A stretch of DNA of 64,000 nucleotides, taken from Escherichia coli (GTDB lineage: Bacteria > Pseudomonadota > Gammaproteobacteria > Enterobacterales > Enterobacteriaceae). The stretch lies in assembly GCF_016026235.1 (NCBI RefSeq), contig NZ_CP065613.1; one strand, written 5' to 3'. Of this stretch, positions 21,001 through 24,000 are shown in pieces. Every line of letters starts with the position of its first letter. The first letter of the stretch is position 1. Made by a program: the position numbers.

Positions 21001-24000
21001 GTTTTTTCTCCTGAAGATCGTTAAGACGCTGCTGATCGTACTCCACCTGTGTGGAGGCGTTTGTCCACGGATATTTTTTCGCGCGCTGAATTTTTTCCTG
21101 TAACGCATCAATCTGCGCATCCAGCGAGTCTTCACGACCAATATTCATGGCCGCATCCCAGAACTGCTTCCACCAGTCAGACAAGGTTTGCAGCGTACTA
21201 CCCAGCGCATTGAGATTATTATCAATATCAGATGTGCGTTTACCGGTTTCCTCTGCCAGCGCAGACATGGCGATCCGGGCCGCATCACTGGACCGCCCCT
21301 GCTCCCCAAGGACGCGTATCTGCTCAAGCTGAGTGGCAGTCAAAAAATGCAGCGCATTGTCCAGCGCCTTCGCGGCATTTACAGGATCATCCTTCAGCCG
21401 CTTAAACTGATTTATGGTATCGCTGACCGACTGGCCAACCGATCGCTCCATCTGTGCGGCAGCTTTCGCCACCATACCAATATCGTTTCCATGAAATGCC
21501 CCACTGCCCGACAGTGACACCGGCATAATGTCCCGTCAGCGCCAGCTGACGGTTAAATTCCTCGCCCTCCTTCCGGCCGTCATGCCAGGCTTTACCCAGA
21601 CCCAGGACCGCCGCGACAAGTCCGCCAATAACGCCGCCAGTCATCATGCCTTTCGGCGACATCAGTGCGCCTGTCCATCCGGCACGGTTAGCCAGCGTTA
21701 TCCCGGATCCCCTCAGCGCACCAAAATTGCCGCGCGCCATCTGACTGATTAACACCCCCAGCTCCCGCCGGGCTGCCGCACTTTTCAGCCCCAGCGAATG
21801 TGTGGCTTTTCCTGCCCGCTCCATTTTGCGGATATACACTTCTGCAGCACTGCTTACCCCCAGCTGAGCCGCCCTGGCGCGAAGCAACTCAGAAGACGAC
21901 AGATTCTGGCGGGTTGCCTGCTCTTTAAGCTGGCGGATAAACGCCGCTTTCTGCCGGGTGGCCTGTTCCTCTGCCTGCGTCAGGGCACGGGTTTTCGCCG
22001 TGATCTCCGAAATCAGCGCCAGATAATCCTGCTGACCAACCCCGCCACTGTTTCTGGCCTGTCGGATCTGCTGCTGAATACGCTGTAATTCCTGAAGCCC
22101 CGCACCGGCCTGTTTCACACTGTCAATCTGGCGATAAAAGGCGGCAGCCGCTTTATCCTGCGCCTCCGCCAGTGCCCTGGCCTGCGCCTGTTCCTCGCGC
22201 ATTTTCTGGCTCAGCGCCTCCATGCGCTGGCGGGTTTTCTCCACCTCGCGGGCCATGCGTTCATGAGCCTGTGCGTTCTTCTCCACCGTCTGCGCATGGA
22301 CGGATGCGGCTGTTGCAGCCGAAGAAGCCGCCTGCGTTGTCTGCCGGGCGGCCTGAGTCTGACGCTCCATAAAACGCTGCATACGGGCAGAAGACCGTTC
22401 TGCATCGCTGGCTGCACCATTCAGAAGGTTTTTGATACGGGGAATTTCATTTTTAAACTCTGCCGCATCAATCCCCAAATCAATGACCAGGTTGGCTATC
22501 TGGTCCATAACGCACACCTCCGGAAATACCTTCCCCAAGATGCATCAGTTCTTCGTCCGTTCGCTCCGGTATCCCGTTCTCTTCCGGTAAAAGGCTGAAA
22601 TCAGCCACCGCAGCATCGCTGCTGCCGGACACCATTCTCACGATCAATGCCTTCAGCGAGGCAAACTGCGCATCCATCCACACATCACTGAAGCTCTGCA
22701 TCCGGAAATAATCGCCCCACTCACCAAGCTCAGTGGCCGACATTTCCGACAGCATCCGCCGCCAGTCTGCCCGCCGGAACTCCCGGGCAAGCCGCATGAC
22801 AAACTGCATTTCCCGCGTCAGGACTTTTCCGGCGTCAGCGCCTCATGATCATCATCCCCGGCATTCTCAATGGTCCCCATACCGCTCAGCGACAGAACCC
22901 TCTCCGCCCCCGCGCCCAGCGCATCATACGACCATGTTGTCATAATGGATGCGCAAAGCGTCTCAACATCCTGAGACTGCTCAGCATTCCACAGTGAGCG
23001 GGAAACCAGCCAGGCATTGATATCCATTCCCATACGCAGAAAAGCAATCTGTCGTTCAGCCTCCGGCAGTTCTCCCTCCTGTGCATCAAACTTTGCCGTT
23101 CGCTGCTGAACAAACGTCAGATATTCAATTCTCTGCAGCCCGGACAGCTCACTGAGCACCACGGACTGTTTTTCATAATTAAACGTATCCTGTTTCAGAA
23201 ACATCATGTTCTCCGGATGCAAAAAGCCCCGGATAACCGGGGCAATGATGAGTATCGTCCTGTTATGGTGCGCTGACGGTCACCGCAGCCACTGCCACAA
23301 ACTCTCCGTCAGAGGTCATGCCCACGATGCTGACACTGCCCTGCTTCACGCCTTTCACCGTGGCCACAAGCCCGCTCAGGGTCACCGAAGCAGTCTGAGG
23401 ATCTGACGAATGCACACTGATCGCTTTGTCACTGGCCCCGTCAGGTTTTACTGTAAAGGTCAGTGTGGTGGTTGCTCCCGCTTTGACACTGACAGATGCC
23501 GGTGCCACCGTCAGTCCGGTAACACCCACGGTTTCAGCGCCCTCCTCTGCCAGATACGGACGCCCCACACCGCTGATTTTTACAGTACGGGTCATCACCT
23601 CTTTTGAGGTAATGGTTTTACCCAGTGAACTCAGCCAGCCACGGAAAACATCAACCGTACCGTTGGGGTATTTGATACGAAACGCGCAGACTTCACCGGA
23701 ATCGAACAACTGAACCAGTTTTTTCTGCCCGCTGTCACCCGGACGCCAGGCCAGCGTCGCCAAAGTATCACCGACGGATTTCTGCCCCTGGGTTGTCGTT
23801 TTCCAGTCTGCATCTTCATCATCGAGATAAGTGTCATCTTCTGCATCAGCGGTCATTTCGCCAGGTTGCAGATCCTTCACCATCGCAAGACGCAGCCAGT
23901 CAGTGTCCGACAAAGGGTTCGCAAACGCATCGCCCTTGCCGGTGTACATCCAGAACGTCGTTCCCGCACCTTTCGTTTTTGCCAGTGGATTTGGTGTGGT

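What the first reader, a model, noticed from the sequence alone, without database searches (positions are those of the whole stretch)
22480..23204. G / G-T tail chaperone arrangement is preserved
The T-like ORF sits in the -1 frame relative to G and stays open across the G stop region (sequence CCGGAAAAGTCC near 22810-22830), consistent with the conserved programmed -1 frameshift that yields G-T. I could not identify a canonical XXXYYYZ heptamer, so the slip site is unconfirmed.
Basis: partly seen in the sequence, partly recalled or inferred. Interest (0 to 1): 0.2.

Follow-up and report, generated by a model that had tools for sequence, protein, structure and literature searches.

The report
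Lambda-type G/GT tail chaperone frameshift site
This is the ordinary lambda-family pair of tail-assembly chaperone genes (G and T) in an E. coli prophage; the ribosome most likely slips back one base on GGAAAAG, the heptamer annotated as the slip site in phage N15, so nothing here is new.

Summary
On the minus strand, G runs 23204..22818 (128 aa; PF06894, TIGR01674). T (PF06223, TIGR01715) lies in the -1 frame, between the tube gene V and the tape-measure gene.

Both frames are open together for only 22 nt (22842..22821). That stretch holds one candidate slip site, G_GAA_AAG at 22830..22824. It differs from lambda's proven G_GGA_AAG by one base and sits at the homologous codon, 11 codons before the T-frame LARE motif. 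The N15 GenBank record annotates the same heptamer as the -1 slippery sequence. It recurs in HK225, phi80, mEp043, Gifsy-1, mEp460 and Salmonella prophages.

The three slip-site codons are the only run of three codon-invariant conserved residues across nine lineages. T's ATG (22809) has no usable Shine-Dalgarno and is not positionally conserved. I found no conserved downstream RNA structure. An upstream GAGG is only weakly supported.

The predicted products are G (128 aa) and GT (241 aa, ...TPEK|VLTREMQF...). No GT protein was observed, so the slippage is inferred.

One caveat concerns the assembly. It carries ten homopolymer single-base deletions and an 83-bp out-of-frame deletion in the tape-measure gene. 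The G/T junction is unaffected.

Verdict: already known, low interest.

The parts
23263..24003 (-). Major tail tube gene (lambda V homologue with C-terminal Ig-like domain), immediately upstream of G
   Evidence: PF16461 Phage_TTP_12 at 4e-66 and PF02368 Big_2 at 5e-11. Annotated as phage tail tube protein in the identical RefSeq locus. Strong SD, AAGGAGGUG.
23220..23243 (-). Terminator-like hairpin GCCCCGG-TTAT-CCGGGGC followed by TTTTT, lying between V and G. Probably a partial terminator that lowers G/T/H expression relative to V (inferred).
   Evidence: Found by the terminator scan. The same element is annotated as a rho-independent terminator or stem-loop in mEp460, HK225 and N15.
22818..23204 (-). 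Gene G, tail assembly chaperone, 128 aa, zero-frame product ending ...TPEKS-stop (TGA 22820..22818)
   Evidence: PF06894 at 1e-39; TIGR01674 equivalog at 180 bits; phrog_42; translation. GGAG lies 6 nt before ATG 23204. RefSeq calls the same start.
22841..22844 (-). SD-like GAGG, 10 nt upstream of the heptamer. A possible weak dnaX-type stimulator; weakly supported and not required.
   Evidence: Position verified. Within the window's clade an SD-like element 10-14 nt upstream is enriched. In the window itself it is weak (-5.6 kcal/mol; 21% of control windows are as good). N15, HK225, phi80 and mEp043 use the same heptamer without it.
22824..22830 (-). Predicted -1 slip site G_GAA_AAG. P-site tRNA-Glu moves GAA->GGA and A-site tRNA-Lys moves AAG->AAA.
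   Evidence: It is the only candidate in the 22-nt two-frame overlap. It is homologous in position to lambda G_GGA_AAG. It is identical to the annotated N15 slippery sequence. It is invariant in all relatives sampled, down to 55% G identity. The P-E-K codons are the only run of three codon-invariant conserved residues.
22480..22842 (-). T reading frame (-1 relative to G). It is translated as the C-terminal 114 residues of GT from base 22824 onward. An internal ATG at 22809 is what annotation pipelines call as a separate 109-aa T. Stop is TGA 22482..22480.
   Evidence: PF06223 at 2e-14; TIGR01715 equivalog at 134 bits; phrog_39. The GT fusion is 241 aa. ATG 22809 has no usable SD and is not positionally conserved.
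19715..22508 (-). Tape-measure gene (lambda H homologue), the binding partner of G/GT. It starts at ATG 22508 and overlaps the end of T by 29 nt. In this window it is split into two ORFs by an 83-bp deletion near 21505.
   Evidence: The TMP_2 domain is split between the two ORFs; TMP_4 and Tape_meas_lam_C are present. The deletion is mapped. The gene is intact at 3042 nt in close relatives. Strong SD, GGAGGU.

Best explanation
This is the lambda-family G/GT tail assembly chaperone unit of a cdtI/mEp460-like lambdoid prophage of E. coli.

Most ribosomes translate G (23204..22818) to its TGA and release a 128-aa chaperone. A small fraction slip back one nucleotide on G_GAA_AAG (22830..22824). 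tRNA-Lys re-pairs perfectly from AAG to AAA. tRNA-Glu re-pairs from GAA to GGA with a G.U at the middle position. Alternatively, only tRNA-Lys slips; the protein made is the same either way. Those ribosomes then read GUC CUG ACG... in the T frame and produce a 241-aa GT fusion (...TPEK-VLTREMQF...).

By analogy with lambda, many G copies and a few GT copies coat the tape-measure protein through the G domain. The T domain then recruits the tube protein V. Neither G nor GT ends up in the virion.

What is shown here: the homology, frame geometry, position and conservation of the site. What is inferred: the slippage itself, its efficiency, and the chaperone role.
For: (1) Family membership of both halves is established.
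(2) T is in the -1 frame, with a 22-nt overlap containing a single N_NNA_AAG motif.
(3) The conceptual fusion aligns with lambda GT through the junction. In 17 of 18 representative phages and prophages, the heptamer lies exactly 11 codons before the T-frame LARE motif. It is G_GAA_AAG in 12, G_GGA_AAG in 3 and A_AAA_AAG in 2. The eighteenth, Vibrio K243, carries C_CCA_AAA in its G/T overlap but lacks the LARE motif, so it could not be placed in that register.
(4) The N15 record annotates GGAAAAG as 'slippery sequence for -1 translational frameshift'. The Gifsy-1 and HK225 records annotate the T homologue as part of a frameshift product.
(5) Across nine lineages only 16 of 73 amino-acid-invariant degenerate codons are codon-invariant. 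Yet CCG GAA AAG is invariant, while the G C-terminus just upstream is highly diverged.
(6) T's ATG lacks an SD at usable spacing. It is missing or displaced in relatives: absent at that position in L064/L147, 10 codons after the slip in L148, directly after it in L150, and absent in lambda and phi80.
(7) The lambda mechanism and the ~30:1 G:GT ratio are established knowledge (review PMC5009743).
(8) tRNA-Glu GAA->GGA re-pairing through G:U, and the 'twofour' XXYYYY motif, are already described for tail-chaperone frameshifts (PMC10885494).
Against: No protein data exist for this prophage or its close relatives.

In a reconstituted E. coli system, AUG GAA AAG was used as the 'less slippery' control and gave mainly 0-frame product (PMC6924986). 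An A_AAG tetramer without a stimulator was near background in vivo (about 0.15%), rising to 5.6% only with a pseudoknot (PMC4066793).

I found no convincing stimulator. The downstream fold has z = -1.6, and the consensus structure has no supporting covariation. The upstream GAGG is weak in the window. Efficiency may therefore be lower than lambda's.

In this particular assembly the tape-measure gene is interrupted. If that is real, the chaperones have no functional client.
Confidence: 0.9

Rival explanations
1. T is an independent gene translated from its own ATG at 22809, as RefSeq/PGAP and the mEp460 record annotate it. No frameshifting is involved.
For: An in-frame ATG exists at 22809. Databases annotate a separate 109-aa 'phage tail assembly protein T'.
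Against: The best anti-SD pairing upstream of this ATG is -4.3 kcal/mol with zero spacing, against -6.6 for G and -13 to -14.5 for V and the tape-measure gene. The ATG is not positionally conserved in relatives and is absent in lambda, N15 and phi80. By contrast, the -1 overlap and the heptamer are invariant. The residues between the heptamer and the ATG (VLTRE) align with lambda GT residues. In lambda the T domain is made only as part of GT (review PMC5009743). Separate calls are the default behaviour of gene callers, not evidence.
Confidence: 0.04
2. Free T is made by termination-reinitiation: ribosomes finishing G at TGA 22820..22818 restart at ATG 22809, 8 nt downstream. This could occur alone or in addition to GT.
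For: The short stop-to-ATG distance in the window's clade would permit coupling. In one Salmonella relative the ATG even overlaps the stop (GTC ATG A).
Against: Coupling cannot explain the strict conservation of the heptamer's synonymous sites, or of the -1 frame relationship across clades where the stop lies 5 codons further on and no ATG is nearby. L064/L147 have no ATG at this position. A free T domain would lack the G part that tethers it to the tape measure (lambda model).
Confidence: 0.05
3. The frame offset between G and T is an artefact. The assembly carries many single-base homopolymer errors, and G and T might really be one in-frame gene or a decayed pseudogene.
For: The window's prophage has ten single-base deletions, nine of them shortening homopolymer runs, relative to a 99.4%-identical prophage. 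The heptamer contains an A4 run.
Against: The 901-nt G/T region is 100% identical to six complete E. coli genomes and matches 1,841 genomes at at least 80% query coverage, nearly all at 95-99% identity. The junction string is base-for-base the same in mEp460 and the IMG/VR relatives, and the slip-site heptamer is the same in Gifsy-1. None of the indels mapped against the reference falls in 22480..23204.
Confidence: 0.01

Closest known systems
Bacteriophage lambda G / GT (programmed -1 frameshift at G_GGA_AAG; Levin, Hendrix & Casjens 1993; Xu, Hendrix & Duda 2004, 2013, 2014, as cited in PMC5009743)
   Same: Homologous G and T domains (TIGR01674 and TIGR01715 equivalogs). Same V-G-T-H gene order. 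T is in the -1 frame. The slip site is at the same aligned codon, 11 codons before LARE. The A-site codon is the same (AAG, tRNA-Lys). No evident downstream stimulator.
   Different: The heptamer is GGAAAAG rather than GGGAAAG, so the P-site tRNA is Glu (GAA->GGA, needing a middle-position G.U) instead of Gly. The G stop follows one codon after the site rather than five. T is shorter (114 versus 146 residues after the slip). Overall identity is about 33%.
Phage N15 genes 14/15, and HK225, phi80, mEp043
   Same: Exactly the same heptamer, GGAAAAG, explicitly annotated in the N15 record as the -1 slippery sequence. Same position relative to LARE. A terminator-like hairpin lies between the tube gene and G in N15 and HK225.
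   Different: The preceding codon is GCG rather than CCG. The G stop is five codons downstream. The T part is about 41-45% identical. There is no SD-like GAGG upstream.
Phages cdtI, mEp460, Tritos and Ayreon, Salmonella Gifsy-1, and prophages in 1,846 complete E. coli genomes
   Same: 95.6-100% nucleotide identity for the E. coli phages and nearly all the prophages. The CCG GAA AAG TCC TGA junction is identical, including in Gifsy-1, whose T is 63% identical and is annotated as made by translational frameshifting.
   Different: Essentially nothing in the G/T unit. Most of these records, and RefSeq, annotate G and T as two separate CDSs with no frameshift join. The window's copy sits next to an interrupted tape-measure gene.
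E. coli dnaX (A_AAA_AAG with an upstream SD 10 nt away and a downstream hairpin); B. subtilis cdd (CGA_AAG with an upstream SD)
   Same: A -1 slip with tRNA-Lys on A_AAG. The window has GAGG exactly 10 nt upstream of the heptamer, the spacing I recall for dnaX; this is not checked in any source read here.
   Different: No downstream hairpin is supported. The SD-like element is weak here and absent in other GGAAAAG users. These are unrelated proteins; this is a mechanistic analogy only.

Membership tests
Lambda-type G/GT tail assembly chaperone pair | The upstream ORF is a gpG homologue (PF06894 / TIGR01674) | tested here: met
   PF06894 at 1.2e-39. TIGR01674 equivalog at 180.3 bits against a cut-off of 74.45.
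Lambda-type G/GT tail assembly chaperone pair | The downstream ORF is a gpT homologue (PF06223 / TIGR01715) | tested here: met
   PF06223 at 2.1e-14. TIGR01715 equivalog at 134.1 bits against a cut-off of 77.35.
Lambda-type G/GT tail assembly chaperone pair | T lies in the -1 frame and overlaps the 3' end of G with no intervening -1-frame stop after the slip site | tested here: met
   The overlap is 22842..22821. The -1 frame is open from 22842 to 22483.
Lambda-type G/GT tail assembly chaperone pair | A slippery heptamer lies inside the overlap at the position homologous to lambda's G_GGA_AAG | tested here: met
   G_GAA_AAG at 22830..22824, 11 codons before LARE as in lambda. It is not a strict X_XXY_YYZ. 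It is identical to the annotated N15 slippery sequence.
Lambda-type G/GT tail assembly chaperone pair | Located between the major tail tube gene and the tape-measure gene | tested here: met
   V homologue at 24003..23263 and tape-measure gene from 22508.
Lambda-type G/GT tail assembly chaperone pair | Evolutionary constraint on the slip site beyond the protein sequence | tested here: met
   The P-E-K codons are invariant in nine lineages, against a background of 22% codon invariance at conserved residues. The lineages are not independent, so this is supportive rather than a formal probability.
Lambda-type G/GT tail assembly chaperone pair | A GT fusion protein is actually produced at a few per cent of G | not testable with these tools
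   This needs a reporter assay or proteomics. In vitro data rank G GAA AAG as less slippery than G GGA AAG (PMC6924986).
Lambda-type G/GT tail assembly chaperone pair | G and GT bind the tape measure, and T recruits the tube protein | not testable with these tools
   Inferred from lambda (review PMC5009743).
dnaX-type stimulated -1 frameshift signal | A functional upstream SD-like element and a downstream hairpin flank the heptamer | tested here: inconclusive
   GAGG lies 10 nt upstream, but it is weak in the window. It is enriched in the clade (combined p about 0.002, non-independent lineages) and absent in N15- and phi80-type sites. The downstream fold has z = -1.56, and the alifold covariation term is unfavourable.

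The most novel reading that the evidence does not exclude
In the cdtI/mEp460/Gifsy-1 clade the weak heptamer G_GAA_AAG may be compensated by an upstream SD-like element 10-14 nt away, and possibly by the G stop one codon downstream. This would set a clade-specific G:GT ratio. Alternatively, the site works by single-tRNA(Lys) slippage, or free T is additionally made by reinitiation at the ATG 8 nt after the G stop. Any of these would be a modest mechanistic variation on the lambda paradigm.
Probability: 0.15. Interest if true: 0.25.

Novelty: already known. Interest (0 to 1): 0.08.

Why it matters
It matters mainly for annotation. RefSeq/PGAP and most phage records call G and T as two separate genes in this very common prophage tail module, which occurs in about a third of complete E. 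coli genomes. They omit the 241-aa GT product. The case also shows that a search restricted to strict XXXYYYZ heptamers misses the slip site. In the small, non-random sample of the lambda G/T family I examined, the near-canonical G_GAA_AAG was the commonest site (12 of 17 representatives). No new biology is implied.

Tried and rejected
(1) Downstream stimulatory RNA structure. The MFE of the 101 nt starting at the heptamer is -42.3 kcal/mol, with z = -1.56. RNAalifold on eight diverged sequences gave no supporting covariation (covariation term +1.2), and its best stem begins about 34 nt downstream. Rejected as unsupported.

(2) Rfam scan of 22300..23400. It returned only a chance sub-threshold snoRNA match.

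(3) Upstream SD-like stimulator. It is enriched in the window's clade compared with the lambda clade. It is weak in the window itself and absent from N15, HK225, phi80 and mEp043, which use the same heptamer. I kept it only as a minor possibility.

(4) Sequencing artefact at the junction. I considered this because of the homopolymer errors elsewhere in the window. Rejected, because the junction is identical in hundreds of independent genomes.

(5) Natural in-frame G-T fusions in the protein database (P0033, P0050). These turned out to be singleton internal-deletion variants, not evidence about the mechanism.

(6) Literature search for an explicit published statement of G GAA AAG as a tail-chaperone slip site. 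Only the EF-G kinetics paper uses the sequence, as a low-slip control. The N15 GenBank annotation is the direct precedent.

(7) A second in-phase A_AAG at G codon 37 (G_GCA_AAG). It lies far upstream of the two-frame overlap, so a slip there would be abortive (with the frame translations).

Full report
**What is in the sequence**

All relevant genes are on the minus strand. A lambda V-type tail tube gene (24003..23263; PF16461 plus Big_2) comes first. A GC-rich hairpin with a T-run follows at 23243..23220.

Gene G follows. It has two adjacent ATGs, at 23207 and 23204. RefSeq uses 23204, which sits 6 nt after GGAG. G ends ...ACG CCG GAA AAG TCC TGA, with the stop at 22820..22818.

The T reading frame is one base behind G, that is, in the -1 frame. 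It is closed by a TGA at 22845..22843, and then stays open from 22842 to the TGA at 22482..22480.

The two frames are therefore open together for only 22 nt. The tape-measure gene starts at ATG 22508, inside the end of T, behind a strong GGAGGU.

**Identity of the two ORFs**

The conceptual G-T fusion matches PF06894 (1e-39) and PF06223 (2e-14). It also matches the NCBIfam equivalogs TIGR01674 (phage_lambda_G, 180 bits against a cut-off of 74) and TIGR01715 (phage_lam_T, 134 bits against 77). PHROG tail families match as well.

BLASTP against lambda GT gives a single segment across the junction (33% identity, E=9e-42). Window ...PE-KVLTREMQFVMRLARE aligns with lambda ...AGKVFDGELSFALKLARE.

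**The slip site**

The 22-nt overlap contains one motif that can support a -1 shift: G_GAA_AAG at 22830..22824. Lambda's experimentally established site is G_GGA_AAG, and I located it in the lambda sequence. The window's heptamer differs by a single G->A and occupies the homologous codons.

I tabulated 18 representative phages and prophages. In 17 of them an N_NNA_AAG heptamer lies exactly 11 codons upstream of the conserved T-frame LARE motif:

- G_GAA_AAG in 12: the window, mEp460, five IMG/VR or Salmonella prophage lineages, Gifsy-1, N15, HK225, phi80 and mEp043.
- G_GGA_AAG in 3: lambda, an Stx2a phage and one IMG/VR contig.
- A_AAA_AAG in 2: both Stx phages.

The eighteenth, a distant Vibrio phage, carries C_CCA_AAA in its G/T overlap. 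It lacks the LARE motif, so it could not be placed in that register.

The N15 GenBank record carries a misc_feature 'slippery sequence for -1 translational frameshift' at 10027..10033. Its bases are GGAAAAG. The Gifsy-1 and HK225 records also describe the T homologue as part of a frameshift product.

**Is it constrained?**

I compared nine lineages of the window's clade, with G identity down to 55-65%. The 20 or so codons before the site are almost unalignable. CCG GAA AAG T(C/T)N TGA, by contrast, is invariant.

In a codon-threaded alignment, only 16 of 73 amino-acid-invariant degenerate codons are also codon-invariant (22%). The P-E-K codons are the only run of three such codons. The third base of CCG, which is the first G of the heptamer, is also fixed. 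This is what a two-tRNA model predicts, since the -1 P-site codon would be GGA. However, CCG is a favoured codon and the lineages are related, so this is supportive only.

From the window's own k-mer frequencies, an in-phase A_AAG in seven codons has a chance probability of about 3.6%. One of the three family heptamers has about 0.2%.

**Independent translation of T?**

RefSeq and several phage records annotate T as a separate 109-aa CDS starting at ATG 22809. That ATG has no SD at workable spacing: its best pairing is -4.3 kcal/mol and abuts the ATG. The comparable values are -6.6 for G and -13 to -14.5 for the tape-measure gene and V.

The ATG is also not conserved in position. It is CGG in L064/L147, the first T-frame ATG is 10 codons after the slip in L148, it directly follows the heptamer in L150, and it is absent in lambda, phi80 and mEp043. 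Termination-reinitiation, with the stop 8 nt before the ATG, cannot be excluded as a side route. It does not explain the conserved heptamer or the frame geometry.

**Stimulators**

The 101 nt starting at the heptamer fold no better than shuffles to any convincing degree (z = -1.56). A consensus fold of eight diverged sequences shows no supporting covariation, and its best stem starts about 34 nt downstream. Rfam finds nothing.

GAGG sits exactly 10 nt upstream (22844..22841), the spacing I recall for dnaX. SD-like pairing 10-14 nt upstream is enriched in the window's clade relative to the lambda clade. It is weak in the window itself, though: 21% of control positions are as good. N15, HK225, phi80 and mEp043 use the same heptamer without it. 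I treat it as unproven.

**How slippery is it?**

Peng et al. used AUG GAA AAG as the low-slip control against G GGA AAG, because tRNA-Glu must tolerate a second-position mismatch on GGA. They saw mainly 0-frame product (PMC6924986). Sharma et al. found A_AAG alone near background in vivo, rising to 5.6% with a pseudoknot (PMC4066793).

The PRFect authors list an XXYYYY 'twofour' motif among tail-chaperone slip sites. They also note that tRNA-Glu can re-pair on GGA if G:U is allowed (PMC10885494).

Lambda needs only about a 30:1 G:GT ratio (PMC5009743), so a low-efficiency site is compatible with function. The actual rate here is unknown.

**Data quality and context**

The 901-nt G/T region is 100% identical to six complete E. 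coli genomes. It matches 1,846 of 5,426 genomes, nearly all at 95-99% identity, and phages mEp460, cdtI, Tritos and others at 95.6-96.4%.

The surrounding prophage in this window is damaged or poorly sequenced. Relative to a 99.4%-identical prophage in strain FDAARGOS_943, it has ten single-base deletions. Nine of these shorten homopolymer runs; the tenth, near 19745, removes a T next to a G run. They split the terminase, portal, protease-capsid fusion, tail and J genes. There is also a 6-bp deletion in J.

An 83-bp out-of-frame deletion between two GGGCAGT repeats splits the tape-measure gene. No complete E. coli genome matches across this junction in a single piece, as far as the twelve best hits listed show. 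None of these differences touches 22480..23204. If the tape-measure deletion is real, G and GT have no functional client in this strain.

**Verdict**

The finding is a correct recognition of an ordinary, well-known arrangement. The slip site can now be named with good confidence. Neither the arrangement nor the heptamer is new. Interest is low; the practical value is in annotation.

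Noticed in passing
window 11000-32600: single-base sites near 31880, 30342, 29463, 28802, 26677, 24822, 24779, 24770, 19745, 15084; 6-bp site near 14196: Relative to a 99.4%-identical prophage (E. coli FDAARGOS_943) the window has ten single-base deletions. Nine shorten homopolymer runs (G6->G5, A8->A7, C4->C3 and so on); the one near 19745 removes a T next to a G run. There is also a 6-bp deletion in J. They split the terminase, portal, ClpP-protease/capsid fusion, a tail gene, the tape-measure gene and J into pairs of ORFs. The pattern looks like homopolymer under-calling by the sequencing platform rather than biology.
   Followed up: partly
window ~21503-21509 (minus strand), inside the tape-measure gene 22508..19715: An 83-bp out-of-frame deletion lies between two 7-bp direct repeats (GGGCAGT) and splits the tape-measure gene into 378-aa and 603-aa ORFs. 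All twelve best hits listed among complete E. coli genomes match in two pieces spanning the extra 83 bp. It may be a real microhomology deletion giving a defective prophage tail, or a misassembly.
   Followed up: partly
window 23243..23220 (minus strand), between V and G: A perfect 7-bp GC hairpin followed by TTTTT lies directly after the tube gene. The equivalent element is annotated as a rho-independent terminator or stem-loop in mEp460, N15 and HK225. Lambda's V-G spacer is only 15 nt. It is probably a leaky terminator that sets the high V to low G/T/H expression ratio.
   Followed up: partly
window 27778..25683 (minus strand): In relatives the ClpP-like prohead protease and the major capsid protein form one 2061-nt fusion gene (NCBI name 'ClpP-like prohead protease/major capsid protein fusion protein'). 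In the window it appears as two ORFs (376 and 322 aa) because of the A6->A5 difference near 26677.
   Followed up: no
Loci L004, L023-L025 (IMG/VR contigs); proteins P0033, P0050: A few database relatives have indels that change the apparent G/T frame relation, or internal deletions that fuse G and T in frame. All are singletons or rare, and are most likely assembly errors or decayed copies.
   Followed up: partly
L152 685-1841 (E. coli FDAARGOS_943 prophage), relative to window ~33600-32600: The closest intact relative carries an IS600 insertion near its lysis genes, and ParD/ParE-like toxin-antitoxin, KilA-N and other small genes further on, before the terminase genes. The window does not align with this stretch of about 3.1 kb and holds only about 1 kb there. 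The exact breakpoints were not mapped.
   Followed up: no
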